A DNA stretch of 64,000 nt, taken from NCBI GenBank assembly GCA_964016885.1, contig OZ024752.1:9176001-9240000 (forward strand). Reading direction: 5' to 3'. The notes below the pieces were generated by a model. It did not search any database and was not told the DNA's origin. It saw only the letters and a list, made by a program, of their open reading frames with translations. The position numbers and the translations under genes are program-made. Source of the DNA: Eledone cirrhosa. Lineage: Eukaryota. Shown here piece after piece: positions 3,520 to 46,655 of this stretch (position 1 is the stretch's first letter; the number at the start of each line of letters is the position of its first letter).

Positions 3520-3831
3520 CATATACTGTGATGTGGTACTTGCTAACATGTAGATTAGATCTGCAAATAATACTCATGTTGTCTTCCTGTATACTTATAT
3601 TAATGATAGTCAATGTACAGATAGTATTTTGACAACTAGTTATTTGACGGTTGCCAAAATATTTATCATTGCCTTCGTCAACCAATCCATTATATCCAGC
3701 AATAAGTGATCCATCTCCAGTATACCAAGTTGTAATATCTCCCCTCTTTCTTACACATTTCAATGTGAAGTTTTTATCTTTTATAGCATTTGGTGTTTCA
3801 GAACTTGGGTAAAGATTCTTCCCAGTCTCAT
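3520..3831 (-). CDS. Ig-like domain exon A, copy 1
   Basis: Canonical AG/GT boundaries, 312 nt, phase 1-1. Reads ETGKNLY...FTLKC...WY...IICRS...ITVY. Confidence 0.85.
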
Positions 3832-4103
3832 CTAAAAACACAAATTAAGACGAGATAAAATAAGAATTAATCCAAAATTTAAGAGAAATTTTAACAATAA
3901 ATTGAAACAAGCCTAATAGTTCATATTCCATTTGTGTGAAGACAGGCAGGGCTGTGCTGTTTAGCCCATGGAAGCAGGGAAAGCAGATGTAAAGTATGTT
4001 GATGATGATGATGATGATAGTGATGATGAGCATAGTATTAGGGGGAGTGGGGTGTTATATGGAATTGACTTAGATTTTTAGTTTTTTCTTATGTTACATC
4101 ACC

Positions 4104-4672
4104 AGTAGCAGCAGCAGCAGCACCACAACCCCCCAACATCATCATCATCATCATCACTACTACTACCACCACCACCAGCATCATCACCACCACCACATTC
4201 ATAGCCATCACTACCACCATCACCACCACAACCATCATAACCACCACCACCACCAGCACCAGCATCAACATCACCACAACCATCATAACCAACACCACCA
4301 CCACCACCACCACCATTGCCACCACCACCACCACCACCACAACCGTCATAACCGCCACCACCACCAGCATCAACATCACCACCACCACAACCACCAACAT
4401 CATAATCATCACTAAAACCATCATAACCAACACCACCACCACCATCACTGCCACCACCACCAGCATCATCACCACCACCACCATTGCCACCACCACCACC
4501 ACCACCACAACCATCGCCACCACCACCACCACCATCACTGCCACCAGCACCAGCATCAACATCACCACCACCAACATCATCATCATCACCACCACCACCA
4601 TCACCACCACCACCACAACCATCATAACCACCACCACCACCATCACTGCCACTGCCAACAACACCATCATCA
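4104..4672. repeat. (CAC/CAT)n trinucleotide array
   Basis: Degenerate CAC/CAT/CAA repeats. Paralog at 24483-25069; deleted in unit 3. Confidence 0.95.
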
Positions 4673-5509
4673 TAAATAATACAAAAAATAAATTATATTC
4701 AGATATAAGATAAATCTAAATGTGCTAAACATGTCACAAAAGAGATTTTATGGAGGGAAGAGTAAATGGAATGATTCTGAGCAAGAATCATGAGATACAA
4801 AATTCAAGTTCAATTTATGTCACATTAATAGATTTAATAAATGATTTTAATGACAATATATAGAGGGCTGATAACTTATTAATATAACTGTTTCTTGTAA
4901 AAATATTATGCTCTTACCAATATACAATAAAATTGTGGTATTAGATAATAATCAAACTGTAATATCCTGTATCTGTGTGTAGACATACAAAATATATTGT
5001 AATACTTTATAAGATCTACAAAATCAGTGTTGCTTTATAAGAGAAAGGCAACTTTCTAACAATAGGAAATTGAGGAAACAGTGTTAGTTTTTTCAACATT
5101 GTTGCTGATATTGTGAGAAATAGCAGCCAAATCTCACCTTACTGTTTTTCAGATCATTGTTTAAATCTAGTGACATGAAAATAATATATTAGATAAGGGT
5201 CATCTTAACTAAACTGTATTCCTTATAGGTTTGCTTGATTAAGGATGACTTAGGAATACATAACAACAAATAGGGAGAGGAAAAACAGATTTTATCAAAG
5301 AACAAATGAATAATTGAGTAGTTTCTACTGTGTTTTCGGATGAACCAATTAACTTCAACTGTAAACATTATTTTTAGTTGTTTTACTTCTTTTACATCTA
5401 AAATTGAGTTTATGCATTGAATTCTTCAAATCCAGAATTATTCAGGAATAATGTACCTGGTGACAATCAAAACTTTAATCTATTTATATTCTAAAGATCA
5501 GTTTGATAT

Positions 5510-6573: not shown

Positions 6574-6852
6574 TAAATAATGGAACAACTATAAATTTTG
6601 TGAACGCAGTCTTGTTGAAACAGGAAATGTCTACGTTAAAGGTGGAAAGAAGGGTGAAGTGTAAAATATTTGGTTTACTGGACTCCACAGATGCGTTAAA
6701 CTTATTATGTACAATAGGCTTCCAATTAGGACTATTAGTGTACACAGCTCCCACCTTCCAGGATGTAATTGTCTCTGGATCATCAACAGGACATTGGAAA
6801 ATTAGGTTTTCATTTACCCTGTGAAATTTTGTACCACCTTCTGTGATAGGAA
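6574..6852 (-). CDS. Ig-like domain exon B, copy 1
   Basis: Canonical AG/GT boundaries, 279 nt, phase 1-1. Reads PITEGG...LIFQCPVDDPETITSWKV...DISCFNK. Confidence 0.75.
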
Positions 6853-7306: not shown

Positions 7307-7714
7307 AATGACATCTAGTGATAATAGGAAACAATGTTTGTAAAATAAATGGAAATATCAGCCTGAAAGCAGACATTCGAATATTAAAGGACATACAACT
7401 GCTGAACTGGGCATAATTTTGGTCAGAACTGGGCACCCATAAGATGGTCATCCTGGTGACATAAGAAAAAAGCACCCAGTCCATCATGTAACATGGATGT
7501 GCTGGTGACATAAAAAAGGTATCCAGTCTGCCCTGTAAGATGGTTGTGCTGGTGACATGATGAAAAAGCACTAGGTTCAACCTGTTAGATGACCTTTCTG
7601 GTGCCACAATAAAAGCACCCAGTCCACACTGTAACGGGTTTGGCCTTAGAAAGATCATCCAGATGAAGAAACCAAACCAAAATACAAATACAAGACATGG
7701 TCACTTTATATAAT

Positions 7715-9246
7715 AAACTACTGGATGTTGGAGGAAACAGTGTGATATTTCACACACTCCACCTTATACAATAAACTACTGGATGTTGGAGGAAACAGTG
7801 TGACATTTCACACACTCCACCTTATACAATAAACTACTGGATGTTGGAGGAAACTGTGTGATATTTCACAAATTCCACCTTATACAATAAACTACTGGAT
7901 GTTGGAGGAAACAGTGTGATATTTCACACACTCCACCTTATACAATAAACTACTGGATATTGGAGGAAACAGTGTGATATTTCACACACTCCACCTTATA
8001 CGATAAACTACTGGATACTGGAGGAAACAGTGTGATATTTCACACACTCCACCTTATACAATAAACTACTGGATATTGGAGGAAACAGTGTGATATTTCA
8101 CACACTCCACCTTATACAATAAACTACTGGATATTGGAGGAAACAGTGTGATATTTCACACATTCCACCTTATACAATAAACTACTGGATATTGGAGGAA
8201 ACAGTGTGATATTTCACACACTCCACCTTATACAATAAACTACTGGATATTGGAGGAAACAGTGTGATATTTCACACACTCCACCTTATACAATAAACTA
8301 CTGGATATTGGAGGAAAGCGTGATATTTCACACATTCCACCTTATACAATAAACTACTGGATATTGGAGGAAACAGTGTGATATTTCACACATTCCACCT
8401 TATACAATAAACTACTGGATATTGGAGGAAACAGTGTGATATTCCACACACTCCACCTTATACAATAAATTACTGGATATTGGAGGAAACAGTGTGATAT
8501 TTCACACATTCCACTTTATACAATAAACTACTGGATATTGGAGGAAACAGTGTGATATTTCACACATTCCACTTTATACAATAAATTACTGGATATTGGA
8601 GGAAACAGTGTGATATTTCACACATTCCACCTTATACAATAAACTACTGGATATTGGAGGAAACAGTGTGATATTTCACACACTCCACCTTATACAATAA
8701 ACTACTGGATATTGGAGGAAACAGTGTGATATTTCACACATTCCACCTTATACAATAAACTACTGGATGTTGGAGGAAACAGTGTGATATTTCACACACT
8801 CCACCTTATACAATAAACTACTGGATATTGGAGGAAACAGTGTGATATTTCACACATTCCACTTTATACAATAAACTACTGGATATTGGAGGAAACAGTG
8901 TGATATTTCACACATTCCACCTTATACAATAAACTACTGGATATTGGAGGAAACAGTGTGATATTTCACACATTCCACCTTATACAATAAACTACTGGAT
9001 ATTGGAGGAAACAGTGTGATAATTCATACACTCCACCTTATACAATAAACTACTGGATATTGGAGGAAACAGTGTGATATTTCACACATTCCACTTTATA
9101 CAATATACTGGATATTGGAGGAAACAGTGTGATATTTCACACACTCCACCTTATACAATAAACTACTGGATATTGGAGGAAACAGTGTGATATTTCATAC
9201 ACTCCACCTTATACAATAAACTACTGGATATTGGAGGAAACAGTGC
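7715..9246. repeat. 58-bp minisatellite (~26 units)
   Basis: Unit aaactactggatattggaggaaacagtgtgatatttcacacattccaccttatacaat. Confidence 0.95.
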
Positions 9247-9786
9247 GCATGTGAGTGATGTTGAGGTCCTTGAGAGAAGTGAGTGTTGGAGCATTGAGAG
9301 TATCATCCACCAACGGCGTTTGTGATGGACTGGACACCTCTGAAGAATGGAGGATGATCGAATCCCAAAATAACTCTTGTATTGCGAGCTTTGTGAGGGT
9401 AAGAGACCACCTCACAAGCCAAGGCTCCGATTCAAGGACTCATTGAAAAAAACTGATTTGATGATGGCTGACTGAGAGATAGAAGCTCTTGAAAGAGAAA
9501 CTTGGCGTGGAATGGTGAATGATGGGGTTCATAATCTTGAGGACAGACGCATAGAGTACGAGAAGATCAAACGGGATGTGCTTAAGCAATGCCCTAGAGT
9601 ATCTCTCGAAATGATCAGTCTCTCCATTAAATAGAAGTGCCCTGAGTGTGGAAAGATTTGCTTGAGCAAATCTGGTCTCAGGAGCCACATTCGCAGCCAT
9701 GTTCAAAGAGAACCAGTGAACTATGATCTCCACGGTGTTGTGAGGGTTCATGGGCAACCTGATGCAGGACCTCAAGTCAGGGAGAT
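9247..9786 (+). mobile_element. RTE/BovB-like LINE 3' fragment
   Basis: WTGHL*RMEDDRIPK...RLRFKD and terminal C2H2 [21 protein letters not shown]. Paralog at 28909-29450. Confidence 0.75.
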
Positions 9787-12304: not shown

Positions 12305-13849
12305 GTAAGTAAGCCACTCTACTTGGCATTTGTCGACCTTGAGAAAGCTTTTGACAGAGTTCCATGTGCTGTAATCTGGTGGGCTCTTAGAAAACTAGGA
12401 GTAGATGAATGGCTTGTGAAAGCGGTACCAGCCATGTATAGGGGAGCAGTCAGCAAAGTTAGGATTAGCAATGAGTATAGCTAGGAATTTAGCGTACAGG
12501 TTGGGGTCCACCAGGGCTCTGTTCTTAGCCCCCTCCTGTTCATCATAGTCCTGCAGGCAATAACGGAGGAGTTTAAGACTGGATGAACCATGGGAACTCC
12601 TGTATGCTGATGACCTCGCACTTATAGCTGAATCTATGGTAGAACTAGAGAATAAATTCCAAACTTGGAAGCAGGGACTAGAAAGAAAGGGCCGCAAAGT
12701 CAACATGACAAAGACTAAGGTCCTTTTAAGTAAAACAGAACCCAGATCCCCTCAGGGAAATGGCCTTGCTCAGTATATAGGAAAGGTGTAGGTAGGAACT
12801 CCATTCTCTGCTCCAAATGCAAACAATGGGTACACAAGAGATGTAGTAGGATCTCAGGAAGCTTAATTAAGAATGTAGGCTTCACATGCAGCAGCTGTGC
12901 TGGGACAGCAAGCAGCAAACAGCCACAGGAAACAAGTACCACCAATCTCTAGGAGGGCTCTGTAGAAACAGTAGACAGCTTCTGCTACCTAGGTGACCGA
13001 ATTAGCAGCGGAGGTGGGTGTTCAGAAAGTACAATAACTAGGGTAAAAACGGGATGGAAGAAGTTTAGGGAACTACTACTACTGCTAGCTGCAAAAGACT
13101 TCTCCCTCAGAATGAAAGCAGACTGCATGATGCGTGTATCCGAAAAGCAATGTTGCATGGTATTGAGACCTGGGCGCTGAAGGTGGAACACTTACGTAGA
13201 TTAGAGAGAAACGAGGCCTGCATGCTCCGATGGATGTGTAACAGTAATATACGTGAACGACAAAGCATAAATGCATTGAGAGAGAGACTGAGCACAAGAA
13301 GAATCAAATGCTGTGTGCAGGAGAGGTGGTTGTGCTGGTATGGACATGTGATGACAGCTGCATAAAAAGGTGCAGAGCACTAGAAGTCGATAGAAACGCG
13401 GAGTGGGGAGACCCAAGAAGACCCAAGAAGGTGATAAAAGCCGACCTTACCCAATTACACCTCTCAAAGGCAATGACACACGACCGTGACCTCCGGCGTC
13501 ACGCAGTAATACAGAGTACCCGACCTCCCATGGGTACAAACTGAAGCATATAAACAATAAGACCCCACACCCCCCACCACAAGGTGGTCGTGGAGGTGCC
13601 ACGGCAAAAAAGCACCCAGCCCACACTGTAAAGTGGACGTGTAGGCGCCACGAAAAAGCACCCAGCACTCACTGTAAATGAGGTTGGTGTTAGGAAGGGC
13701 ATCCAGCTGTAGAAATCAAGCCAAATCAGTTCCTGTATGAGCAAGGCATGTTCAGCCGACCAGACACTGCCCACAACAGGACAACCCGTCTAACCCATGC
13801 TAGCGTGGAAGAACGGACGTAAAACGGTGATGATGTTGATGATGATGAT
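12305..13849 (+). mobile_element. 5'-truncated RTE LINE (family B), decayed
   Basis: [24 protein letters not shown], zinc finger, 3' UTR and (GAT)n tail. Confidence 0.9.
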
Positions 13850-16363: not shown

Positions 16364-16859
16364 AATATGGTTTTATAAATATAGTTTCCATTTATAAACT
16401 CTTAACCTCTGTTCCATCCCATCTTCTACCCCCTACCCATACATCATGCTGGTTCCTGCCCCCCCCTCTCTATACATATAAGATAAAACCCTACCAAAAT
16501 TAATCAAAATCGCCAACTCGCTATTTCTGGGATGGCTGTTCCTTCGGTATAAAGTAACGTTCAAATTTTTCTCGATTCTTCTCTCCATTCGAACCCATTC
16601 ATTCAATCACTTCTATGTCCTAATTTCACACTATATCATATTTTCACCATTCTATATCATATCTTTTCTCTAAAAATCATATTTTCCCTATCACCGCATT
16701 TTCTCTATCGTATTTTCTTAAACAAAACAAATCTTGTATTTCCGTTTATTGTTAAATTATGCCCAAAATACGGCGATCTTATCTTAAACCTTACATTCTC
16801 GCTAACAACCCATCATCCCTCCCTCCCGCCCCCACGCACCACCATTATTACGTGGACCA

Positions 16860-19800
16860 ATCATAAGTCAGAGGCCCATACTATCGCTTAACTGGTTGCT
16901 TTTCGATATGATGGATGGACTACGGAATTCTGGAGAGTTGAAGAGAGAAAAATGTGGACGCTCAGCGACAATGCCAAAGATAAAGCCAAATTCACCTCGT
17001 GGACGAGAATGCAAGCACTCCTCCTTGTTTCGGCCCAGGATGGCTAACATAACCCCATCCCCCACCGCTCCCCACCGCTCCCACCCTCCAAACGCAATCC
17101 AAAACTTCAGAGTTGGTACCATGAATGTAGGCACCTTAAAGGGTCGCTCTAACGAGGTTGTAGAAATGCTTGAACGTAAGGAGGTCGATGTTTGTTGTAT
17201 TCAAGAGACCAGGTGGAGGGGAGGGTCGGCTAGATTCATCGTGGGTAAAGAACGATGCTATAAGCTTTTCTGGGTGGGAAATGACAATGGGTTGGGTGGG
17301 GTAGGAATCATGGTAGCAGAAAAGTGGGCAGATAAGATAATAGACGTAAATAGAGTGAACGACAGAATAATTAAAATAAGACTTGTCCTCAATAAAACTA
17401 CGGTGACAGTAATATCTGCGTACGCACCCCAATCCGGACTGCCCGGCGCTATAAAAGACAGATTCTACGAGACACTGATGCTCGCTACCTCCCAAATAAC
17501 CGACAGTGACTATATAGTTATTGCAGGCGACCTAAATGGTCACGTTGGACAACATTGTGACGGCTATGACGGAATCCATGGAGGCTATGGATTCGGTACT
17601 AGAAATGAGGAAGGCTCCAGAATCCTGGAATTCTGCGACGCAAATAACTTAACTATCTGTAACACTAACTTCAAAAAACGAGACAATCACTTGATCACCT
17701 ATAGATCGGGGGAACACACAAGCCAGGTAGATTATATCCTTACCAGAAGACGTGACAGAGTGTCTGTTGTTAACACTAAATCCCACCCCCATGAAGAATT
17801 CACCTCCCAACATAGACTGATAATTAGCGACCTCATAGTCAGGACGAGACGTACTAGACAGCGGAAGAGGACTATCCTCAGGAGAAAAATATGGAAGCTA
17901 AAGGACCCCATAGCCAGAAATAAATTTCAAAGCATATTACTTGACGCTTTCGACAGTAAGGAAGAGCAATTAGAGTCGTATAATATAGAGGAACAGTGGG
18001 AATTCCTGAGAGCAAACCTGCTGACGGCGGCAGACGAAACCTGTGGCTGGAGCAGGCCTGTAGGTAGGAGGAGAGTAACATGGTGGTGGAACAGTAAGGT
18101 GGAGGAGTCAATTAAGGCCAAAAAGCAGGCTTGGAAAGTATGGCGGGATGGGGGAAGTAGAGAAGACTATCAAGTGGCCAGGAGGGAAGCTAGGAGACAA
18201 GTGTACTTCGCAAGAAGGGAAGCAGAGGAAAGAAAGTTCAAGCATGTTCTACAACGTGAGGACCAAAAACGTGAGGTGTTCAGGATTGCCAGGCAATGTG
18301 TCAAGGAAAACCGTGATATTGTCGGGGAGAAGTGTGTACTTAACGATGATGGCATACTTGCCATCACCGACGCTGATAAGAAGGTAGCTTGGAAGTGTCA
18401 CTACGAAAGGCTTCTAAATGAGGAGAACAAATGGGAGAAAGACAGTCTCCCCCAGATCGATCCAATAGAGGGACCAGCAGTGTTAGTCGAGGGGAGTATA
18501 ATAAGTAAGGCAATCAAAGATATGAAGACGGGTAAGGCGGCTGGGCCTTCGGAAATAGTTGCTGAGATGCTGAAGGCATCTGGTTCGGTGGGACACACCA
18601 TGGTCACCCGGATAGTTAACCAAGTCGTACAGAATGGGGTTGTTCCGAAGGAATGGCGTAGCAGCATCATCGTTAACTGCTATAAGGGAAAAGGAGATGC
18701 CCTAGATAGGAGTAACTATAGAGGCATTAAATTAATCGACCAGGTCATGAAGGTCACGGAAAAAGTAATAGCGCAACTAATCAGAGAGAGAATTGATCTA
18801 GATGAAATGCAGTTCGGGTTTGTGTCAGGCAAAAGTACCACAGACGCTCTTTTCATTGTACGACAACTACAGGAGAAGTACCTAGCTAAAAGTAAACCCC
18901 TATACTTAGCTTTCGTCGACTTGGAGAAAGCCTTCGACAGAGTCCCCCGTTCCATTATCTGGTGGTCTCTTAGAAAACTAGGTGTTGACGAATGGCTTGT
19001 GAGAGCTATACAAGCCATGTATAAAGAAACAGTCAGTAAGGTTAGAATTAACAACGAATATAGTGAAGAGTTTAGCGTAAAAGTTGGTGTCCATCAGGGC
19101 TCTGTTCTTAGCCCCCTACTATTTATTATTGCCCTTCAGGCTATAACAGAGGAGTTCAAGACCGGCTGCCCATGGGAACTCCTATACGCAGATGATCTAA
19201 CGCTCATAGCTGAATCAATGACCGAACTAGAGAAGAAATTCCAAACATGGAAGCACGGCCTAGAATCAAAAGGCCTTAAAATTAACCTGGCTAAGACTAA
19301 AGTTCTAGTTTGTAGGAAAGAAAATAAGGCGGCGGTCCCATCTGGGAAATGGCCATGCTCAGTGTGTAGGAAAGGCGTAGGTAGAAACTCCATTTTATGT
19401 CCCAAATGCAAAGTATGGGTGCATAAAAGATGTAGTGGGATCACAGGTAAGCTAACTAAGAACATAGATTTTACATGTGGCCGGTGCTCTGGTGCAATAA
19501 GTAGCAGCAAGTGCCCACAAAATACTAGCTCCTTCAACTGCGCAGAGGGTTCTATAGAAATAGTGGACAGCTTCCGTTATATGAGTGACAAAATCAGCAG
19601 TGGGGGAGGGTGCTCTGAAAGTACAGTAGCTAGAGTCAGAACTGGATGGAAAAAGTTCAGAGAGCTTATACCACTATTAGCCGCTAGAGGGTTCTCCCTA
19701 AAAATGAAAGGCAGGTTATACGATGCCTGCATACGAACAGCAATGCTGCATGGCAGTGAGACCTGGGCATTGTGTGCAGATGATATACGCAGACTAGAGA

Positions 19801-23898: not shown

Positions 23899-24210
23899 CA
23901 TATACTGTGATGTTGTACATGCTACCATGTACAAGAGATCTGCAAATAATACTCATGTTGTCTTCCTGTATAGTTATATTAATGATAGTCAATGTACAGA
24001 TAGTATTTTGGCAACTAGTTATTTGACGGTTGCCAAAATATTTATCATTGCCTTCGTCAACCAATCCATTATATCCAGCAATAAGTGATCCATCTCCAGT
24101 ATACCAAGTTGTAATATCTCCCCTCTTTCTTACACATTTCAATGTGAAGTTTTTATCTTTTATAGCATTTGGTGTTTCAGAACTTGGGTAAAGATTCTTC
24201 CCAGTCTCAT
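23899..24210 (-). CDS. Ig-like domain exon A, copy 2
   Basis: Same splice sites and 312-nt open frame as copy 3; Ig Cys/Trp motifs. Confidence 0.85.
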
Positions 24211-27013: not shown

Positions 27014-27292
27014 TAAATAATGGAACAACTATAAATTTTGTGAACGCAGTCTTGTTGAAACAGGAAATGTCTACGTTAAAGGTGGAAAGAAGGGTGAAGT
27101 GTAAAATATTTGGTTTACTGGACTCCACAGATGCGTGAAACTTATTATGTACAATAGGCTTCCAATTAGGACTATTAGTGTTCACAGCTCCCACCTTCCA
27201 GGATGTAATTGTCTCTGGATCATCAACAGGACATTGGAAAATTAGGTTTTCATTTACCCTGTGAAATTTTGTACCACCTTCTGTGATAGGAA
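27014..27292 (-). CDS. Ig-like domain exon B, copy 2
   Basis: ttttgttctttttcag acceptor, A|gtaagt donor, 279 nt, phase 1-1. Has the LIFQC...SW...DISC Cys-Trp-Cys pattern. Confidence 0.75.
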
Positions 27293-29578: not shown

Positions 29579-32396
29579 CATGAAGACATCGCATCTCAGA
29601 GTTGCAACACTTAATGTTGGCACTCTCAGAAGTAGATCTGCTGAAATAGAGGAGATGCTGGAGAGAAGGCATGTGTGGATGTGTGTTGCATGCAAGAGGT
29701 GAGATGGGGAGGTGCCTCTGCGAGACTAGTCGTAGGCAAACGTCTTAGCTATAAGCTATTCTGGGTAGGTAAGGATGATGGGTTAGGGGGAGTAGGCATT
29801 TTCCTGGCTGAGAAATGGATCAATAAGACAATAGAGGTAGTTCGAGTTAGTAATTGAATAATTAAGCTTAGTTTAGTTGTAGGCAGGAGACTACTGACAA
29901 TCATCTCGGCCTATGCTCCTAAAGCAGGCCTAGGCAAAGATGAGAAAGACTGCTTTTACGAGCAACTTTTACAAACAACCGCAATGACAGAGGATGGAGA
30001 CATCGTTATGCTAGCAGGAGACTTCAATGCTCATGTTGGACAGCTCCAGGATGGTTACACTGGGGTACATGGTGAGCACGGTTACGGCTCAAGAAATGAA
30101 GAAAGAGTGAGACTTCTTGAATTTTGTGATGCAGGTACATTGACTATTTGCAACACAAACTTCCAGAAACCTGCCAATCACCTAATAACCTACAAATCTG
30201 GTGAGCACATAAGCCAGATTGACTTCTTACTAGTTAGGCAGCAGGACAGACAGATAGTGTCTAATACCAAGGCATACCCTGGGGAAGAATGTACCCCACA
30301 GCATAGGTTAGTCGTTAGTGATATCTCAGTAAGCAAGAGATAGAATGAGACATACAGGAAGGTGTGGAGAAGAAAGGTCTGGAAGCTAAAAGACCTTTCA
30401 CTAAAATACAAATTTAGGAAAGCCCTTCAAGATGTATATGACGAAAAAGAAGTCGATTTAGAGACGTATGACATAGATAATAACTGGAATTTCTTATGTG
30501 ACAACTTGCTGGAGGCTACTGATGAAACTTGTGGCTAGAGCAGAGCTCCAACCAGACAGAGAGTGACCTGGTGGTGGAACAGCACAGTAGATAAGGCCAT
30601 TAGAGACAAAAGACTAGCATGGAAGGCTTGGAAAAAGGGTGGGAGTAGGGAAGAATATACAGCCACTAAGAGAGAAGCTAGACGTCAGGTGTACTTAGCA
30701 CGCAGGGAGGCGGAGAGTAGGAGGTTTGCCAATGTTCTGAGATGGGAAGAGCAGAGGCGTGCAGTATTCCACATTGCAAGGCAGTGTGTCAATGCAAATC
30801 AGGATGTTGTTGGAGATAAATGTGTCCGGGATGATGCCGGTGTACTTAGTGTCACGAATGATCAGAAAAAGGAGGCCTGGAAATGTCATTATGAGAGACT
30901 GATGAATGTGGAGAACGAATGGGAGAGAGAGAAATTACCCTTAGTAGATCCGACAGAGGGACCAGCTATTGAGATTGACGAATATAGGGTCCAAGAAGCG
31001 ATTAGGAAAATGAAAAATGGTAAGGCTGCTGGACCATCGGGAATAGTTGCTGAGATGCTGAAGGCATCAGGGGACGTAGGCACTAAACTGGTTGCACGCA
31101 TCATCAATCAGGCTATATATGGTGGTGTCATACCCAAAGACTGGTGCAGCAGTATTCTCATAAATTGCTACAAAGGTAAAGGGGATGCTCTGGAGAGGAG
31201 CAATTATAGGGGTATAAAACTGATGGATCAGCCGCAAAGTCAACATGACAATGACTAAGGTCCTTTTAAGTAGACGAGAAAACAGAACCCAGATCCCCTC
31301 AGGGAAATGGCCTTGCTCAGTATGTAGGAAAGGTGTAGGTAGGAACTCCATTCTCTGCTCCAAATGCAAACAATGGGTACACAAGAGATGTAGCGGGATC
31401 TCAGGAAGCTTAATTAAGAATGTAGGCTTCACATGTAGCAGCTGTGCTGGGACAGCAAGCAGCAAACAGCCACAGGAAACAAGTACCACCAATCTCTAGG
31501 AGGGCTCTGTAGAAACATTAGACAGCTTCTGCTACCTAGGTGACCGAATTAGCAGCGGAGGTGGGTGTTCAGAAAGTAAAATAACTAGGGTAAGAACGGG
31601 ATGGAAGAAGTTTAGGGAACTACTACCACTGCTAGCTGCAAAAGACTTCTCCCTCAGAATGAAAGCAGACTGCATGATGCGTGTATCCGAAAAGCAATGT
31701 TGCATGGTAGTGAGACCTGAGTGCTGAAGGTGGAAGACTTACGCAGATTAGAGAGAAACGAAGCCTGCATGCTCCGATGGATGTGTAACAGTAATATACG
31801 TGAACGACAAAGCATAAATGCATTGAGAGAGAGACTGAGCATAAGAAGAATCAAATGCTGCGTGCAGGAGAGGCGGTTGTGCTGGTATGGACATGTGATG
31901 ACAGCTGCATAAAAAGGTGCAGAGCACTAGAAGTCGATAGAAACGCGGAGTGCGGAGACCCAAGAAGACCTGGGATGAGGTGATAAAAGCCGACCTTACC
32001 CAATTACACCTCTCAAAGGCAATGACACACGACCGTGACCTCTGCGTCACGCAGTAATACAGAGTACCCGACCTCCCATGGGTACAAACTGAAGCATATA
32101 AACAATAAGTCCCCACACCCCCCACCACAAGGTGGTCGTGGAGGTGCCACGGCAAAGAAGCACCCAGCCCACACTGTAAAGTGGACGTGTAGGCGCCACG
32201 AAAAAGCACCCAGCACTCACTGTAAATGAGGTTGGTGTTAGGAAGGGCATCCAGCTGTAGAAATCAAGCCAAATCAGTTCCTGTATGAGCAAGGCATGGT
32301 CAGCCGACCAGACACTGCCCACAACAGGACAACCCGTCTAACCCATGCTAGCATGGAAGAACGGACGTAAAACGGTGATGATGATGATGATGATGA
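29578..32396 (+). mobile_element. Chimeric RTE: family C 5' part fused by deletion to family B 3' part
   Basis: Family C sequence runs to ...AAACTGATGGATCA (about 31230) and continues directly with GCCGCAAAGTCAACATG, which matches about 12691 in family B. Confidence 0.85.
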
Positions 32397-35468: not shown

Positions 35469-35780
35469 CATATACTGTGATGTGGTACTTGCTAACATGT
35501 ACAAGAGATCTGCAAATAATACTCATGTTGTCTTCCTGTAGAGTTATATTAATGATAGTCAATGTACAGATAGTATTTTGACAACTAGTTATTTGACGGT
35601 TGCCAAAATATTTATCATTGCCTTGGTCATTCAATCCCAGATATCTAGCAATCATTGATCCATCTTCAGTATACCATATTGTAAAATCTCTCCTGTTTCT
35701 TACACATTTCAATGTGAAGTTTTTATCTTCTATAGCATTTGGTGTTTCAGAACTTGGGTAAAGATTCTTCCCAGTCTCAT
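35469..35780 (-). CDS. Ig-like (V/I-set-like) domain exon A, copy 3
   Basis: tgtttttag acceptor, G|gtaagt donor, 312 nt, phase 1-1, no stops. Has FTLKC, WY and [17 protein letters not shown] Ig signature motifs. Confidence 0.85.
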
Positions 35781-36577: not shown

Positions 36578-36777
36578 NNNNNNNNNNNNNNNNNNNNNNN
36601 NNNNNNNNNNNNNNNNNNNNNNNNNNNNNNNNNNNNNNNNNNNNNNNNNNNNNNNNNNNNNNNNNNNNNNNNNNNNNNNNNNNNNNNNNNNNNNNNNNNN
36701 NNNNNNNNNNNNNNNNNNNNNNNNNNNNNNNNNNNNNNNNNNNNNNNNNNNNNNNNNNNNNNNNNNNNNNNNNNNNN
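36578..36777. other. Assembly gap (200 N)
   Basis: Run of N. Confidence 1.
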
Positions 36778-37662
36778 AACTACTGGATGTTGGAGGAAAC
36801 AGTGTGATATTTCACACATTCCACCTTATACAATAAACTACTGGATATTGGAGGAAACAATGTGATATTTCACACATTCCACCTTATATAATAAACTACT
36901 GGATATTGGAGGGAAACAGTGTGATATTTCACACATTCCACCTTATACAATAAACTACTGGATGTTGGAGGAAACAATGTGATATTTCACACATTCCACC
37001 TTATACAATAAACTACTGTATGTTGGAGGAAACAATGTGATATTTCACACATTCACCTTATACAATAAATTACTGAATGTTGGAGGAAACAACGTGATAT
37101 TTCACACATTCCACCTTATACAATAAACTACTGGATGTTGGAGGAAACAGTGTGATATTTCACACATTCCACCTTATACAATAAACTACTGGATATTGGA
37201 GGAAACAATGTGATATTTCACACATTCCACCTTATATAATAAACTACTGGATATTGGAGGAAACAGTGTGATATTTCACACATTCCACCTTATACAATAA
37301 ACTACTGGATGTTGGAGGAAACAATGTGATATTTCACACATTCCACCTTATACAATAAACTACTGTATGTTGGAGGAAACAATGTGATATTTCACACATT
37401 CCACCTTATACAAATAAATTACTGAATGTTGGAGGAAACAACGTGATATTTCACACATTCCACCTTATACAATAAACTACTGGATGTTGGAGGAAACAGT
37501 GTGATATTTCACACATTCCACCTTATACAATAAACTACTGGATATTGGAGGGAAACAATGTGATATTTCACACACTCCACCTTATACAATAAACTACTGG
37601 ATGTTGGAGGAAACAGTGTGATATTTCACACATTCCACCTTATACAATAAACTACTGGATGG
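36778..37662. repeat. 58-bp minisatellite
   Basis: Same unit; interrupted by the Gypsy element. Confidence 0.95.
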
Positions 37663-37669
37663 TGTTGTT

Positions 37670-39742
37670 ATATGCACCATTTTGTAATTTTGTCGTGCGT
37701 AATGCTAAGAGCGCTAATTGAGGTTCTTCGCCACTTTTGAATGCCTTTTTTATTGTCTGTATATTTCTCTCAACCATGCCATTTGCTTGATGATAATGTG
37801 GGCTTGTTTTCCCTGTGATAAAAATGCCAATTTTTTGCAAACTTTTTAAATTCAGCCGAATTGAATTCTGGACCGTTGTCACTGACAACTGTTTGTGGAA
37901 TGCCGAATTTGGCAAAAGTTTCTTTTATTCTTTTGATTACAGTTTTTGACTGGCAATCATTTATTTCGTGTAAATCAAAAAATCTTGTTGTATAGTCAAT
38001 GATTGTGACATACGAATTTCCAGACAGGTGAAATATGTTTGTACCTACTTTGGTCCATGGTGTAGTAGGTATTTCATGATTTATTAGTGGTTCGGCTGGT
38101 TGTTGATTTTTCTAATCGATGCAGTATGAGCATGTGTTAATCATGTCTTTGATTTGAGCGTTAATGCCGGGCCAGTATATACATTCCTTGGCTCGCTCTG
38201 TGCATTTTTCAATACCCATGTGTCCGGTATGTATTTCCTGTAGAGCTTCTCTACGTAATGACTTAGGTACAATGATTCTTGGACCTTTTAGAACGAGGCC
38301 ATTGACGATCGATATTTCATCACGAACAGAGACGAATGGTTTAATGTTTGTTGGTATTTTGTCTTTTGGGGGCCATTCTGTTCTTGTATATGTGATGACT
38401 GTCTGTAGTGACGAGTCGTGTGCAGTGGCTTCTTTGTACTCGTTTAATTTAGTGTCGGTTATGGGGTAATTTTTTTATTACTGCATGTATGTGCGATTTC
38501 ATATCTTCGTCTGATACTTCTGGAGTATTTTGTTCAAGGTATGCACGTGATAGAGTATCTGCAACAACTGATTCTTTACCAGGTATGTAGTTTAGGTCAA
38601 AATCGTATCTTTGTAATGCTAGTAGAAATCTTTGGATTCCGGGGGGGGGGGGGGGGGGGGGGGCATTTAGTGATCGATTTTTTGAATATTTGCTTCAACG
38701 GTTTATGGTCGTTTTCGATTCTGAAATGAGTTCCGTATATAAAGTGATGAAATTTCTTGCATGCGAAAACTAAACTGAGAGCTTCGCTCTCTATCGGACA
38801 GTAGTTTTGTTCCGCTTGAGTTGTTGCACGAGATGTAAACGAAACAGGTAGCCATCTTTCGTTGTGTTTCTGCTCAAGTATAGCTCCGAGCCCATGCTTA
38901 CTAGCATCTGTAGTTATTTTTACTGGTTGATCTGGATCATAAAATTGTAGCACTGGTTTTCTGGTAATCATTTCTTTTAGCTTTTTTATTGCTTCGATTT
39001 GAGGTTTGTCGAGTGACCATAACGTGTCACTCTGTAGAAGCTGGCGTAATGGTGCTGTAACTTCGGAGTAGTTTGGTAAAAATTTACATAGGTAATTTGT
39101 CATACCTAGGAATCTTTGTAATTCTTTTTTGCCTGTAGGTAGTGGCATGTGAATGATTGCTTGCACTTTGGTTGGATCTTGTTTTATCCCTTCGCTGGTT
39201 AATAGATGCCCAAGCTACGTTATTTGTGATGCATTGAAGATACACTTTGATTTATTTAACTTTAATCCGTGCTTTCGGATTCGTTCGAAAACTTGTTGTA
39301 ATCTATTTGTGTGTTCTTCTAAAGTGCTGGACCAGATTATAATGTCATCCTGTGAATTTCTTGCTCCTTCTATGCCATCTATTATTTTTGCGATTTCTTT
39401 TTGGAAAACTTCACTGGCGCTGTGAATTCCATAGGGCAGTCGTGTGAAGCGATATCTTCCAAAAGGTGTGTTGAACGTTAACAGGTGGGAGCTTTCTTCG
39501 TCAACTGGAATTTGCCAGTATCCATTAGATGCATCGAGTTTCGAGAAATATTTTGGTTTATGCATTTGTGCAAAAATGTCCTCCGCTGGAGGGAGTTTTA
39601 AATGTTGCCTTTTTATGGCTTTGTTTAGATTCTTGGGGTCCAAACAGAGTCGGAGTTTTCCGTTGGCTTTTTCAACGATGACTAGGGAATTTACCCAGTC
39701 TGTAGGTTCACTAACGGGTTTTATGATTCCTAATTCTGTCAT
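37670..39742 (-). pseudogene. Gypsy pol: RT, RNase H, integrase (disrupted)
   Basis: LRLCLDPKNLN, LDASNGYWQ, RLPYG, SQDDII; TDASKHGLGA, ENDHKPL; NGMVERNIQT. Frameshifts and a poly-G run at 38641-38663. Confidence 0.9.
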
Positions 39743-41201
39743 TTTTTTGAGTTCTTTTTTTGAGTTTTTCTTTTATAGAAAAAGGAACCGATCTTGGTGG
39801 ATGAATTACAGGAGTTATTTGTGGATCCACTGTGATATGATGTGTTATTGGCAGAGTGCCGATTTCTCCGAAACAGTCTTCATATTTTTCTGTTATGTCG
39901 TTTGCGTTCGACGAATTTATTTTTAAAATTCTCTGAATTAAGTTCAGATCTTGTGCTGTCTTTGCATCTATAACTGCGTGCGAGTTTGTTTTTGCAACAA
40001 TGAATTTTGTTTGTTTTGATACTTTTTTGTATTTAACGACTGCTGTGCATTTTCCTAGCACTTTTATAGCTGTGTTATTGTAGGCTGATAATCGAGTTGA
40101 GGATTTTTGCAGTTGGGGTTTTGGAATAATATTTTTATATTCTCTGAATGGCAGTACGGTCACGTCTGCTCCAGTATCAATTTTGAATGTTACATTCGAG
40201 TTATTCACTTTTAGTTCGACCGTCCAAATGTCTTTTGGAGTCTTGAACTTTTCGATTTTATGCACGCGGGATTTATTTAAAGTGATCACTTTGAGTGCAT
40301 GTATATCGTCATCTGATTCATCGTCGGAATGTGTCTCCACTTTATGTACAAATTTTCTTGATTTGCACATTTTTGCATAGTGTCCTTTTTTCTTGCATTT
40401 TTCACATATCTTGTGGAATGCTGGGCACTTATTTCTTTGGTGATCGTAACCTAAATAGTGACAGTTAGTGACGTATTGTTGACTTGGCGCTTGAAATTTC
40501 GCGGGCTTTCTATCACTTCCGCCTTGCCCGTTTTGACGTCTCGATTGCATATGGCGAGTTATCTGTGTTTTGGCGCCTTTTCTGTCGTGTTGACTATGTA
40601 TCGCCGAGATTTCGTTATCTCTTGTTTCGGATGTGGCATTCAGCATCCTTGATTGGCGTCGTGTTTGCTCTACACTCTGACCGGCTTGAATTGTTTTTTG
40701 TATGTCTAAATTTGGTTCTCTCAATAATCTTTCTCTTACTCTCATGTCTCTGATTCCACATATCAGAATATCTCTGGTGAGACTGTCTGTAAGGTCGCCG
40801 AATTCGCACTGTTGTGCCTTTTGGCGCAACTCTACCACGTACTCATCGAATTTTTGATGTTCCGCTTGTCCACATGTGAAGAATTTGTGTCTCAGGAAAG
40901 TTATGTTTTTTCTGGGTTCACAATATGCATCGAATTTTTCGATTACTGTTTGAAGGTTCATTTCTTCGTCGGGTGAATCGAAATCCAGAGTAGAATGGAT
41001 GTCTCGGCCTTTGGAACTGATGCAAGTTAAAAACATTGAAGTTTTTACTTTGTCTGGCTTTATGTCACTTTCTGATGCTATCAAAAAGAGATTGAATTCT
41101 TTTTTCCACTTTTTCCATGCAGCGGCTAGATTTTCTTGATTAAAATCTAGGTCTTTTGGATGCGGTAGATTTTCCATTTCGTCTTTGAAGTATGATTTCA
41201 A
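39711..41201 (-). pseudogene. Gypsy gag-protease (frameshifted before RT)
   Basis: CEKCKKKGHYAKMC zinc knuckle; FKIDTGADVT aspartic protease. Confidence 0.9.
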
Positions 41202-41244
41202 CTTCTTTTTTCTTTTCGTTTCTGTAGGATGGGTTCTTTTAGTA

Positions 41245-41255
41245 TTCTGACACCA
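41245..41255 (-). promoter_or_regulatory. Primer-binding site (probably tRNA-Leu)
   Basis: TGGTGTCAGAA immediately after the LTR's terminal CA. Confidence 0.75.
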
Positions 41256-41493
41256 TGTTGTTGTTATATAAATATATATAAGTTGTGTATGAAAGGAAAT
41301 AGTGAGTACTTAGTATGAAAGATCAAGAACGTGAGAGAGACTGAAAAGACGTGTAAACAATACGATATACTTTATTATACTGTGTCTATACAAGGTGTCT
41401 CCTCGGGCAGGAGATTTCCTTATTGTCTCTGTATCAAGGGAGATAATGGGCGACGTTAGTTGGTCTTGTCTATGATGATGCTTAACATGAACA

Positions 41494-44400
41494 GATGGTG
41501 GGGGAAGCAGTGTGATATTTCACACACTCCACCTTATACAATAAACTACTGGATATTGGAGGAAACAGTGTGATATTTCACACATTCCACTTTATACAAT
41601 AAACTACTGGATATTGGAGGAAACAGTGTGATATTTCACACATTCCACTTTATACAATAAACTACTGGATATTGGAGGAAACAGTGTGATATTTCACACA
41701 TTCCACCTTATACAATAAACTACTGAATGTTTGAGGAAACAGTGTGATATTTCACACATTCCACCTTATACAATAAACTACTGGATGTTGGAGGAAACAG
41801 TGTGATATTTCACACATTCCACCTTATACAATAAACTACTGGATGTTGGAGGAAACAGTGTGATATTTCACACATTCCACCTTATACAATAAACTACTGA
41901 ATGTTGGAGGAAACAGTGTGATATTTCACACATTCCACTTTATACAATAAACTACTGAATGTTGGAGGAAACAGTGTGATATTTCACACATTCCACCTTA
42001 TACAATAAACTACTGGATATTGGAGGAAACAGTGTGATATTTCACACATTCCACCTTATACAATAAACTACTGAATGTTGGAGGAAACAGTGTGATATTT
42101 CACACATTCCACCTTATACAATAAACTACTGGATATTGGAGAAAACAGTGTGACATTTCACACATTCCACCTTATACAATAAACTACTGAATGTTGGAGG
42201 AAACAGTGTGATATTTCACACATTCCACCTTATACAATAAATTACTGGATATTGGAGGAAACAGTGTGATATTTCACACATTCCACCTTATACAATAAAC
42301 TACTGGATATTGGAGGAAACAATGTGATATTTCACACTTGTGTATTATTCTATGTACTATATTGACGAGTTGTAGTGCACCTGAGCACTTTACACAATAA
42401 TTTCATTATTATTATATTCCACCTTATACAATAAACTACTGGATGTTGGAGGAAACAGTGTGATATTTCACACATTTCACCTTATACAATTAACTACTGG
42501 ATGTTGGAGGAAACAGTGTGATATTTCACACATTTCACCTTATACAATAAACTACTGGATATTGGAGGAAACAGTGTGATATTTCACACATTCCACTTTA
42601 TACAATAAACTACTGGATATTGGAGGAAACAGTGTGATATTTCACACATTCCACTTTATACAATAAACTACTGGATATTGGAGGAAACAGTGTGATATTT
42701 CACACATTCCACCTTATACAATAAACTACTGAATGTTGGAGGAAACAGTGTGATATTTCACACCTTCCACCTTATACAATAAACTACTGGATATTGGAGA
42801 AAACAGTGTGATATTTCACACATTCCACCTTATACAATAAATTACTGGATATTGGAGGAAACAGTGTGATATTTCACACATTCCACCTTATACAATAAAC
42901 TACTGGATATTGGAGTAAACAATGTGATATTTCACACATTTGTGTATTATTCTATGTACTATATTGACGAGTTGTAGTGCACCTGAGCACTTTACACAAT
43001 AATTTAATTATTATTATATTCCACCTTATACAATAAACTATTGGATGTTGGAGGAAACAGTGTGATATTTCACACATTCCACCTTATACAATAAACTACT
43101 GAATGTTGGAGGAAACAGTGTGATATTTCACACATTCCACTTTATACAATAAACTACTGAATGTTGGAGGAAACAGTGTGATATTTCACACATTCCACCT
43201 TATACAATAAACTACTGGATATTGGAGGAAACAGTGTGATATTTCACACATTCCACCTTATACAATAAACTACTGAATGTTGGAGGAAACAGTGTGATAT
43301 TTCACACATTCCACCTTATACAATAAACTACTGGATATTGGAGAAAACAGTGTGACATTTCACACATTCCACCTTATACAATAAACTACTGAATGTTGGA
43401 GGAAACAGTGTGATATTTCACACATTCCACCTTATACAATAAATTACTGGATATTGGAGGAAACAGTGTGATATTTCACACATTCCACCTTATACAATAA
43501 ACTACTGGATATTGGAGGAAACAATGTGATATTTCACACTTGTGTATTATTCTATGTACTATATTGACGAGTTGTAGTACACCTGAGCACTTTACACAAT
43601 AATTTCATTATTATTATATTCCACCTTATACAATAAACTACTGGATGTTGGAGGAAACAGTGTGATATTTCACACATTTCACCTTATACAATTAACTACT
43701 GGATGTTGGAGGAAACAGTGTGATATTTCACACATTTCACCTTATACAATAAACTACTGGATATTGGAGGAAACAGTGTGATATTTCACACATTCCACTT
43801 TATACAATAAACTACTGGATATTGGAGGAAACAGTGTGATATTTCACACATTCCACTTTATACAATAAACTACTGGATATTGGAGGAAACAGTGTGATAT
43901 TTCACACATTCCACCTTATACAATAAACTACTGAATGTTGGAGGAAACAGTGTGATATTTCACACCTTCCACCTTATACAATAAACTACTGGATATTGGA
44001 GAAAACAGTGTGATATTTCACACATTCCACCTTATACAATAAATTACTGGATATTGGAGGAAACAGTGTGATATTTCACACATTCCACCTTATACAATAA
44101 ACTACTGGATATTGGAGTAAACAATGTGATATTTCACACATTTGTGTATTATTCTATGTACTATATTGACGAGTTGTAGTGCACCTGAGCACTTTACACA
44201 ATAATTTAATTATTATTATATTCCACCTTATACAATAAACTATTGGATGTTGGAGGAAACAGTGTGATATTTCACACATTCCACCTTATACAATAAACTA
44301 CTGAATGTTGGAGGAAACAGTGTGATATTTCACACATTCCACTTTATACAATAAACTACTGAATGTTGGAGGAAACAGTGTGATATTTCACACATTCCAC

Positions 44401-45884
44401 CTTATACAATAAACTACTGGATATTGGAGGAAACAGTGTGATATTTCACACATTCCACCTTATACAATAAACTACTGAATGTTGGAGGAAACAGTGTGAT
44501 ATTTCACACATTCCACCTTATACAATAAACTACTGGATATTGGAGAAAACAGTGTGACATTTCACACATTCCACCTTATACAATAAACTACTGAATGTTG
44601 GAGGAAACAGTGTGATATTTCACACATTCCACCTTATACAATAAATTACTGGATATTGGAGGAAACAGTGTGATATTTCACACATTCCACCTTATACAAT
44701 AAACTACTGGATATTGGAGGAAACAATGTGATATTTCACACTTGTGTATTATTCTATGTACTATATTGACGAGTTGTAGTACACCTGAGCACTTTACACA
44801 ATAATTTCATTATTATTATATTCCACCTTATACAATAAACTACTGGATGTTGGAGGAAACAGTGTGATATTTCACACATTTCACCTTATACAATTAACTA
44901 CTGGATGTTGGAGGAAACAGTGTGATATTTCACACATTTCACCTTATACAATAAACTACTGGATATTGGAGGAAACAGTGTGATATTTCACACATTCCAC
45001 TTTATACAATAAACTACTGGATATTGGAGGAAACAGTGTGATATTTCACACATTCCACTTTATACAATAAACTACTGGATATTGGAGGAAACAGTGTGAT
45101 ATTTCACACATTCCACCTTATACAATAAACTACTGAATGTTGGAGGAAACAGTGTGATATTTCACACCTTCCACCTTATACAATAAACTACTGGATATTG
45201 GAGAAAACAGTGTGACATTTCACACATTCCACCTTATACAATAAACTACTGGATGTTGGAGGAAACAGTGTGATATTTCACACATTTGTGTATTATTCTA
45301 TGTACTATATTGACGAGTTGTAGTGCACCTGAGCACTTTACACAATAATTTAATTATTATTATATTCCACCTTATACAATAAACTATTGGATGTTGGAGG
45401 AAACAGTGTGATATTTCACACATTTCACCTTATACAATTAACTACTGGATGTTGGAGGAAACAGTGTGATATTTCACACATTCCACCTCATACAATAAAC
45501 TACTGGATGTTGGAGGAAACAGTGTGATATTTCACACATTTCACCTTATACAATAAACTACTGGATATTGGAGGAAACAGTGTGATATTTCACACATTCC
45601 ACCTTATACAATAAACTACTGGATATTGGAGGAAACAGTGTGATATTTCACACATTCCACCTTATACAATAAACTACTGGATGTTGGAGGAAACAGTGTG
45701 ATATTTGACACATTTCACCTTATACAATAAACTACTGTATGTTGGAGGAAACAGTGTGATATTTCACACATTCCACCTTATACAATAAACTACTGGATAT
45801 TGGAGGAAACTGTGTGATATTTCTCACATTCCACCTTATACAATAAACTACTGGATGTTGAAGGAAACAGTTTGGTCTTTCACA
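41494..45884. repeat. 58-bp minisatellite with 1202-bp higher-order repeat
   Basis: A ~78-bp foreign insert recurs at about 42338, 42940, 43540, 44142, 44742 and 45286. Confidence 0.95.
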
Positions 45885-46588
45885 AAGTGAAAGTAGAGTA
45901 TATTTGGAACAGATCTGTTAATTACATCAAGTCAATTAATTACCTACCTATACTGTATTGATAAAATTGTTAGCACATTTAAAATACCTGTAATAAGTAG
46001 TTACATTTCTTTTTCTACTAAGTTTATATTCTGTCATACTAACAATACATTCTGTGGTTGATCAACTAAAGTACCAGTCAAGTATTGGAGATCAATTTAA
46101 TATAACTAAAAGGCAACAATCTGTCCTGACAAATCTTTCCCATTACATTTGTATAGATGTGTTTTGATATATATTGTCATGTTTTTTCTACATTCTCTAT
46201 CTCACTTTTTAGATCTTTTTCTGTTTCCTTCTTTACAAATTCTGTGTTCAACCAACTGCATAATATCTAATTATATAATGGTTCACTTAATACAACCCGG
46301 AATCTATACAGTTGTTGTGATAACAGTTGTAAACAGTCAGGTTCAAATAACTATATAGTTGCCTAATCTGTAAGACATAGTAACAAAAGGAATCATGTGT
46401 GTGAGAAATAAAATACCCATGTCTGGAACAACATTAATCCTAGATATGTTTGATCAGTCTTAACTTTAGGATCAAATAACAGAATCACTGATGAGATTCT
46501 TAATTCTATCAACAAATGAGACTTTCTCATAAGTAATTGTTTTGAAAAATAAATTCGATCTTTATATTAGAAACATAATATTACCTAC

Positions 46589-46655
46589 CCCAGCTGTGTA
46601 ATTGTGAGATTTGTGTGATTAACAAAAGTTTCAAAAATAACAGATTCAATTCCAT
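46589..46655 (-). CDS. Putative first coding exon (signal peptide) of an Ig-superfamily gene
   Basis: Minus strand: acceptor ttttcttttatatacag, then ATA ATG, encoding MELNLLFLKLLLITQISQLHSW + G|gtaggt. Short hydrophobic N-terminus. The phase-1 donor fits the phase-1 acceptors of the Ig exons downstream. Confidence 0.65.

What the first reader, a model, noticed from the sequence alone, without database searches (positions are those of the whole stretch)
3520..46655. Ig-superfamily gene with one signal exon and a tandem array of duplicated two-exon Ig cassettes
Seen: on the minus strand the order is signal exon, gap, A3, B2, A2, B1, A1. All Ig exons are phase 1-1 with intact splice sites and no stops. 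I find no signal exon inside the duplicated units. The window start (RTE 3' end plus PLE remnant) matches about 33989 onward, so another unit probably continues to the left. Known: symmetric phase-1 exons can be chained, skipped or used mutually exclusively, as in arthropod Dscam, and variable Ig arrays underlie invertebrate recognition systems such as Hydractinia Alr. Inference: this is either an elongating (B-A)n ectodomain or an array of alternative ectodomain cassettes in an undescribed invertebrate recognition or immune receptor.
Basis: partly seen in the sequence, partly recalled or inferred. Interest (0 to 1): 0.9.

Follow-up and report, generated by a model that had tools for sequence, protein, structure and literature searches.

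The report
Octopod receptor with tripled Ig pair
This gene of an uncharacterised octopus-type cell-surface receptor family has its first two immunoglobulin-like exons copied in tandem after most of the stalk exons were lost, and it likely makes one long chain of fast-diverging recognition domains rather than a Dscam-style choice of one cassette.

Summary
The exons are real: signal exon, scaffold gap, A3, B2, A2, B1, A1, all phase 1-1, open, with GT-AG sites. Both exon types fold as Ig domains; A is V-set-like. No further unit lies to the left. The gene continues there with one constant Ig exon, a transmembrane exon and predicted tyrosine-motif tail exons, two matching the ITIM consensus. It belongs to the octopod LOC106869178/LOC106874069 family, whose 15 examined gene models carry at most one B-A pair. 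The genome holds three paralogues on one scaffold: one full-length (B-A-C3..C8) and two sisters that lost the stalk and then tripled B-A independently, at different junctions. Copies diverge about 5-7 times faster in exons than in adjacent introns, mostly non-synonymously, on the C-C'-F-G face. No per-cassette leader exon and no docking-site signal were found. One spliced contig shows B-to-A splicing in the sister gene; where it ends hints at A-to-B chaining. No RNA shows the window's own copies. Best reading: a chained ectodomain of a diversifying recognition receptor (0.5); cassette skipping or choice stays open (0.25).

The parts
46589..46658 (-). Signal-peptide exon (ATG at 46655, 22 codons plus 1 nt, phase-1 donor)
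   Evidence: aligns by eye with the N-termini of P0001/P0002; single copy in this locus
36578..36777 (.). Scaffold gap at the expected place of a third B exon (B3, predicted; further units could be hidden)
   Evidence: N run; flanks equal the B-A intron block and the 58-bp satellite, which lie 1.8-1.9 kb apart around B in units 1 and 2
35469..35780 (-). Exon A3, V-set-like Ig domain, phase 1-1
   Evidence: 21 of 312 nt differ from A1
27014..27292 (-). Exon B2, Ig-like domain, phase 1-1
   Evidence: 2 of 279 nt differ from B1
23899..24210 (-). Exon A2, V-set-like Ig domain, phase 1-1
   Evidence: 8 of 312 nt differ from A1
6574..6852 (-). Exon B1, Ig-like domain, phase 1-1
   Evidence: (pLDDT 94.7)
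3520..3831 (-). Exon A1, V-set-like Ig domain, phase 1-1; followed outside the window by C3 (C12:9168561-9168235), TM (9164134-9164030) and tail exons
   Evidence: (pLDDT 90.6)
9245..9247 (.). Duplication junction 1: 58-bp satellite joined to sequence from 1.4 kb before C3
28911..28912 (.). Duplication junction 2, same breakpoint as junction 1
7702..9245 (.). 58-bp satellite upstream of B1 (further arrays at 27946-28911, 36778-37661, 41494-45884); marks the unit start
1584..2526 (.). RTE-derived arm of a long inverted repeat; partners at 12307-13255 (92%, brackets B1-A1) and 31235-31802 (95%, brackets B2 to A1)
   Evidence: a role in skipping is untested

Best explanation
The window holds the 5' part of a type-I Ig-superfamily receptor gene whose B-A exon pair is tandemly repeated, and the repeats are likely spliced in series into one ectodomain, signal-(B-A)x3-C3-TM, ahead of a predicted tyrosine-motif tail that likely signals after ligand binding. 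Shown: exon anatomy, Ig folds (predicted structures), family membership, loss of stalk exons C4-C8 shared with a sister gene, independent triplication in the two sisters, excess amino-acid change. Inferred: B3 in the gap; chained splicing; the tail exons; binding through the C-C'-F-G face; a recognition role (pathogen or self/non-self), in which the chain would rebuild reach (7 Ig domains against 8 in the full-length paralogue) while showing three different binding faces on one molecule.
For: Homologues P0001/P0002 map exon by exon, B 31% and A 50-62% identical. Three TM loci only: R1 (window), R2 (5.41-5.44 Mb), R3 (39.24-39.29 Mb). R1 and R2 share one C4-C8 deletion junction; their triplication junctions differ. 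All cassette splice sites are canonical and identical, frames are compatible, and A-to-B introns are 8-17 kb, so nothing structural forces exclusion. No leader exon in any unit. Docking-selector scan: top scores 31-33 against shuffled tops of 29-40 in 4 of 4 comparisons; positive control 409. Run X4 gave one spliced 421-nt contig equal to the last B-A of R2 at 18 of 18 differences from A1. It stops one base past exon A, as expected if A forks to TM (begins TA) or B (begins TT); only the last two A copies of R2 share that 30-nt end, and R2 has no C3. Exon against intron divergence: A1-A3 21/312 vs 9/787 (p=2e-6), B1 vs R2's last B 31/279 vs 7/470 (p=1e-8). Non-synonymous to synonymous changes: 38:4 over six A copies (p=0.03), 39:5 over five B copies (p=0.05). 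18 of 21 variable A residues lie in C-C'-C''/F-G and their loops, 0 of 21 in strands A, B, D, E. Tail exons with two ITIM-consensus and one YxN motif in R1.
Against: No contig of X4 carried the window's own A copies (1 contig laid, from R2), and no A-to-B junction was read directly. That contig matches only the last cassette, which also fits preferential use of it. The fork could instead be A-to-C3 from an unassembled allele or paralogue, or a back-splice; the contig's start 108 nt into B matches a merge with R3's B, and a fourth signal exon without a body exists. 0 of 15 homologous gene models have a repeated B-A. Within the window's three A copies alone the excess is not significant (21:4, p=0.33); only 7 of 25 non-independent pairwise tests reach p<0.05; B1 and B2 differ at 2 nt only. 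The face regions were drawn after seeing the alignment. No terminal coding exon was identified for R1. No ligand or tissue data.
Confidence: 0.5

Rival explanations
1. Cassettes are used alternatively: the signal exon splices to any B, and/or any A splices to C3, giving isoforms with one to three B-A pairs or one chosen pair; long RTE inverted repeats could loop out B1-A1 or B2-A2-B1-A1.
For: All exons are phase 1-1. Every examined homologue has a one-pair N-terminus. Copies differ on the likely binding face. Inverted repeats of 571-959 nt at 92-95% bracket the cassettes. The X4 contig matches one cassette only. PMC6071210 (abstract) argues that tandem duplication often yields mutually exclusive exons.
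Against: No docking-selector signal above shuffles outside masked tandem repeats. No long inverted repeat at all in sister R2. No promoter-leader unit per cassette. Strict exclusion predicts that the contig runs on into TM; it stops at +1.
Confidence: 0.25
2. The window's gene is silent or decaying, or only its last cassette is used; the triplication is a neutral product of unequal crossing-over at the 58-bp satellite and the amino-acid differences were imported by gene conversion from paralogues.
For: No R1 contig in X4. Junctions sit at a satellite. No terminal exon found, and a candidate late acceptor of R3 is altered in R1. Copies look mosaic at the 3' end of A.
Against: All five Ig exons, C3, TM and nine tail exons are open with intact sites. 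Triplication happened twice independently after stalk loss. The sister is transcribed and spliced. Contigs drop rarer variants, so the blank is not evidence of silence.
Confidence: 0.15
3. Assembly artefact: the units are haplotypes or collapsed paralogues placed in tandem, or the signal exon beyond the gap belongs to another gene.
For: Gap between the signal exon and A3. R1 and R2 flanks are 98-99% alike. A fourth signal exon ends at another gap. DNA contigs hold A variants absent from the 7 assembled copies.
Against: A3 through TM and tail is gap-free. Two identical novel junctions and unit-specific insertions. R1 and R2 have non-homologous flanks for 40 kb or more on both sides. DNA contigs of one sample show more A-end variants than two alleles of one exon allow. 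The signal-exon contig and the body are both closest to R2.
Confidence: 0.1

Closest known systems
Octopod uncharacterised IgSF receptors LOC106869178, LOC106874069 (Octopus bimaculoides), LOC115212116/LOC115212114 (O. sinensis, O. vulgaris, Argonauta)
   Same: Signal-B-A-C3 order, TM, tail of repeated short tyrosine exons (YLEL, YxN); stalk length varies among members.
   Different: 15 of 15 examined models have at most one B-A; here it is repeated and C4-C8 are deleted.
CEACAM/PSG family (vertebrates); rodent PSGs with several N domains
   Same: Works like it: recent exon duplication lengthens a chain of V-type domains, and N-domain positive selection is linked to pathogen binding (PMC10440875, passages).
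   Different: No homology shown beyond the Ig fold; the repeated unit here is a two-exon pair; the protein is membrane-bound, whereas PSGs are secreted (recalled).
Chelicerate sDscam-beta
   Same: Tandem 5' cassettes coding two Ig domains before constant exons, after loss of other ectodomain exons (PMC4835542, passages).
   Different: sDscam cassettes carry their own promoter and first exon; here one signal exon serves all. Three units, not up to 13 (40 in sDscam-alpha). Not a Dscam homologue.
Insect Dscam1 mutually exclusive arrays
   Same: Tandem variant Ig exons of one phase.
   Different: Alternating two-exon units with 8-17 kb introns; no docking-selector signal; no FnIII hits in homologues.
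Hydractinia Alr proteins
   Same: Divergent V-set-like domains that HMMs miss, single-pass, ITIM/ITAM tails, paralogue clusters (PMC9546547, passages).
   Different: Alr arrays are whole genes with an Fn3-like extracellular spacer; no homology or allorecognition role shown here.

Membership tests
Octopod LOC106869178-like IgSF receptors | Homologous B, A and C3 domains in order after a signal exon | tested here: met
Octopod LOC106869178-like IgSF receptors | Homologous transmembrane exon | tested here: met
   63% identity to P0001 TM, E 2e-7
Octopod LOC106869178-like IgSF receptors | Tail of repeated short tyrosine-motif exons | tested here: inconclusive
   Predicted 36-nt and 57-nt exons conserved in 3 of 3 loci with family-like motifs; tblastn with homologue tails did not find them; no RNA
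Ig superfamily | Ig beta-sandwich with B-strand Cys, C-strand Trp, F-strand Cys | tested here: met
   Invariant C/W/C; A best matches TCR and antibody V domains, E 2e-5, TM up to 0.78; B best matches nectin-1 D1, CD244, CD58, E 1.6e-3 and weaker
Insect Dscam1-type array | Homology to Dscam (Ig plus FnIII architecture) | tested here: not met
   No FnIII family in P0001/P0002; Dscam chains match only the stalk part of the profile, E 0.005 and weaker
Insect Dscam1-type array | Docking site complementary to a selector in each unit | tested here: not met
   4 of 4 scans within shuffled range; tandem repeats masked, ungapped helices only
Insect Dscam1-type array | One variant per mRNA | tested here: inconclusive
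   One RNA contig, from the sister gene; its end argues weakly against exclusion
Chelicerate sDscam / clustered Pcdh-type array | Own promoter and leader exon in each cassette | tested here: not met
   One signal exon per locus; promoters themselves not tested
Hydractinia Alr | V-set, I-set, Fn3-like spacer, TM, ITAM/ITIM tail | tested here: not met
   V-like domain, TM and ITIM consensus present; no Fn3-like segment between C3 and TM exons
Hydractinia Alr | Allele-specific homophilic binding and allorecognition phenotype | not testable with these tools
   needs binding assays and population data
CEACAM/PSG | Sequence homology to CEA-family N domains | tested here: not met
   No CEACAM chain among the 60 of 98 profile matches shown or the fold matches shown; analogy only

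The most novel reading that the evidence does not exclude
Octopods have a fast-evolving Ig receptor family in which two sister genes independently built arrays of two-domain recognition cassettes that are chosen or skipped by splicing, giving cell-to-cell variable receptors with inhibitory tails: a young, cephalopod counterpart of Dscam diversity caught as it arises.
Probability: 0.2. Interest if true: 0.85.

Novelty: new variant of a known kind. Interest (0 to 1): 0.52.

Why it matters
Cephalopods have few described variable recognition receptors. This family shows the marks of one: paralogue turnover, changing stalk length, amino-acid change concentrated on one Ig face, and tyrosine-motif tails. 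Two sister genes that each lost the stalk and then independently tripled the same two exons make a natural test of what happens right after exon duplication: chaining or exclusion. One long-read cDNA experiment decides it, because each A copy has its own 3'-end variants next to the junction. Four LOC identifiers of the family occur in 0 papers of the library, and listings showed no paper on it; subscription journals are mostly not covered.

Tried and rejected
A further unit left of the window: none. Pfam on the exons: no Ig hit in 3 of 3. Run search: no RNA holder listed among 4 runs; X4 proved to hold a spliced contig, and the lack of window-copy contigs in it is no evidence of silence. Copy number from DNA contig depth: variants at depth 3-13 against shared pieces at 28-47 fit both 8 and 14 copies, so it was not used. 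Docking-selector searches: blank. Terminal exon of R1: not found. Homologue search with alignment A2 looked only at proteins of 2136-5000 aa and gave one unrelated hit. ESM Atlas on B: top clusters unnamed, commonest phylum Mollusca, some V-set, recognition 2212 below threshold, so a lead only. Downstream-intron counts for B between R1 and R2 were ungapped and misaligned; the aligned values are used. One search timed out and was redone. Earlier scan findings: none. R1 and R2 as alleles: rejected on non-homologous flanks. No complex prediction was run, as no partner is known. Papers seen: PMC9546547, PMC4835542, PMC10440875 as passages; PMC6071210, PMC6994640 as abstract and outline; all others as search listings only; no supplements opened.

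Full report
OBSERVATION. The window is G000:C12:9176001-9240000 of a 3.0-Gb genome; the homologues place it among octopods. On the minus strand lie a signal exon (46658-46589), a 200-N gap (36578-36777), A3, B2, A2, B1 and A1. A exons are 312 nt and B exons 279 nt; all are open, phase 1-1, with identical acceptor and donor context. Pfam gave no Ig match for the three exons scanned, but AlphaFold2 models are confident (A pLDDT 90.6, B 94.7). A matches V domains of TCRs and antibodies (E about 2e-5). B matches nectin-1 D1, CD244 and CD58 more weakly (E 1.6e-3 at best). The gap sits between the B-A intron block and the 58-bp satellite, which in units 1 and 2 lie 1.8-1.9 kb apart with B between them, so B3 is predicted to be in the gap. 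No third window-type B is found elsewhere in the assembly (6 matches from 8 candidates).

THE REST OF THE GENE. The left flank holds no more units. It holds one constant Ig exon C3 (C12:9168561-9168235), a TM exon (9164134-9164030) and predicted tail exons: one 57-nt exon, then four 36-nt and four 57-nt tyrosine exons in a second tandem array. Two of the four 36-nt copies match the ITIM consensus given in PMC9546547 (passage); none forms an ITAM. One of the four 57-nt copies has YxN. These tail exons rest on splice consensus and conservation in 3 of 3 loci, not on RNA, and no terminal exon was found.

FAMILY. The closest proteins are uncharacterised Octopus and Argonauta receptors with signal-B-A-C3-C4-C5-C6-C7-C8-TM and tails of repeated tyrosine exons. 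Of 15 gene models examined, 14 have one B-A, one lacks B, none repeats the pair, and stalk length varies. More distant octopus proteins have other B/A orders (P0057 with two A-like domains, P0151 A then B), with a counterpart at C1:171.63 Mb.

HISTORY IN THIS GENOME. Three TM loci exist, all on C12. R3 (39.24-39.29 Mb) is full length. R1 (the window) and R2 (5.41-5.44 Mb) share one deletion junction removing C4-C8; R2 also lacks C3. Both then tripled B-A. In R1 the satellite is joined to sequence 1.4 kb before C3, identically at 9245 and 28911 (units of 15-20 kb). In R2 the junction lies 112 bp beyond the satellite and joins other sequence (units of 6-8 kb). So the triplications are independent. 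R1 and R2 are 98-99% alike in the block they share but have unrelated flanks for 40 kb or more on both sides, and R2 has no gap over 199 kb; they are paralogues, not alleles. A fourth signal exon ends at a gap below R3, and DNA contigs show A variants not in the 7 assembled copies, so the family is incompletely assembled or polymorphic.

SELECTION. Exons diverge faster than adjacent introns: A1-A3 6.7% vs 1.1%, A2-A3 6.7% vs 1.4%, A1-A2 2.6% vs 0.5%, B1 vs last B of R2 11.1% vs 1.5%; TM exons of R1 and R2 differ at 1 of 105 nt. Over the R1 and R2 copies (R3 left out for its indels), changes are 38 non-synonymous to 4 synonymous in A (p=0.03) and 39 to 5 in B (p=0.05); within R1's three A copies alone 21 to 4 (p=0.33). 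pN exceeds pS in 25 of 25 pairs, 7 at p<0.05, and pairs are not independent. With strands assigned by me from DSSP and the canonical Cys and Trp, 18 of 21 variable A residues fall in C-C'-C''/F-G and their loops (42 of 103 positions), none in A, B, D, E; 1 of 26 variable B residues falls in B, D, E. The regions were drawn after seeing the data. That this face binds ligand in CEACAM, nectin and CD2-type receptors is recalled knowledge. Gene conversion can inflate exon divergence and was not modelled.

SPLICING. No listed run is on record as RNA. Laid on exon A1, run X4 gave one 421-nt contig at depth 147 that covers the exon exactly and continues into the 3' end of a B exon, so B-to-A splicing is real. 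It equals the last cassette of R2 at 18 of 18 differences and at 30 of 30 loose-end letters. It is not from the window's gene. It ends one base after exon A. B and C3 begin TT and TM begins TA, so a fork after one shared T fits A being joined both to TM and to B or C3. The same 30-nt A end occurs only in the last two copies of R2, which has no C3. This is what chaining predicts and strict exclusion does not. It is indirect reasoning about assembly graphs. An unassembled allele joined to C3, or a back-splice, would explain it too, and the contig's start 108 nt into B coincides with a merge with R3's B. The known routes to exclusive choice are missing: no leader exon per cassette as in sDscam (PMC4835542, passages) and no docking-selector pairing above shuffles (PMC6071210, abstract). 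Long RTE inverted repeats do bracket cassettes in R1, but not in R2; they could promote skipping and are untested.

MECHANISM. Most likely (0.5): after the stalk was deleted, a misplaced crossover or repair event at the 58-bp satellite duplicated B-A with its introns, and unequal crossing-over made three copies. All copies are spliced in series, giving 7 Ig domains in R1 and 6 in R2 against 8 in R3. Each A presents a different C-C'-F-G face; ligand binding would lead to tail phosphorylation and SH2-protein recruitment. The ligand is unknown; the selection pattern favours pathogen or self/non-self recognition, and an ITAM-bearing Ig receptor that binds bacteria is reported in oyster (PMC6994640, abstract), with no homology tested. 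Rivals: alternative use or skipping of cassettes (0.25), a silent or last-cassette-only gene (0.15), assembly artefact (0.1).

COMPARISON AND VERDICT. It is a member of the octopod LOC106869178-like family. It works most like CEACAM/PSG-type exon multiplication (PMC10440875, passages). It fails the tested defining features of Dscam1, sDscam and Alr. The family identifiers occur in no paper of the library, and searches listed none on it. Verdict: real, a new architectural variant of a known kind of receptor, interest 0.52; the bold reading of spliced cassette choice has probability 0.2 and would deserve 0.85.

Noticed in passing
G000:C12:9126851-9155503 (L002-L005), left of the window: A second tandem array in the same gene repeats a 36-nt and a 57-nt tyrosine-motif tail exon four times each; R3 has three sets, R2 one of each.
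   Followed up: partly
G000:C12:5413555-5442900 (L014-L017): Sister gene with signal-(B-A)x3-TM and no constant Ig exon; its last cassette is spliced in run X4.
   Followed up: yes
G000:C12:39187389-39187529 (L044): A fourth signal-exon copy about 2.9 kb from a scaffold gap, with no body in the assembly.
   Followed up: partly
G000:C1:171631600-171634500 (L031): Distant relative with B-like, A, B-like exons, matching O. bimaculoides LOC106876419.
   Followed up: partly
window 16806-20141 (+): Uninterrupted 1111-aa RTE-type LINE reading frame, antisense in the A2-B1 intron and absent from the other units (class recalled from its motifs).
   Followed up: no
window 37652-41309 (-): Ty3/gypsy-like remnant in several broken frames in the first intron; the part at 37662-40582 is shared with R2 (class recalled from its motifs).
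   Followed up: no
window 41494-45884: 58-bp satellite with a higher-order repeat of about 600 bp.
   Followed up: no
window 58950-62629: Very AT-rich nested inverted repeat around 60.9 kb, with 233-bp duplications and short Penelope-endonuclease-like frames on both strands (class recalled); similar structures recur in the right flank.
   Followed up: no
window 55721-56118: 66-bp tandem repeat, six copies, in frame within a LINE-like fragment.
   Followed up: no
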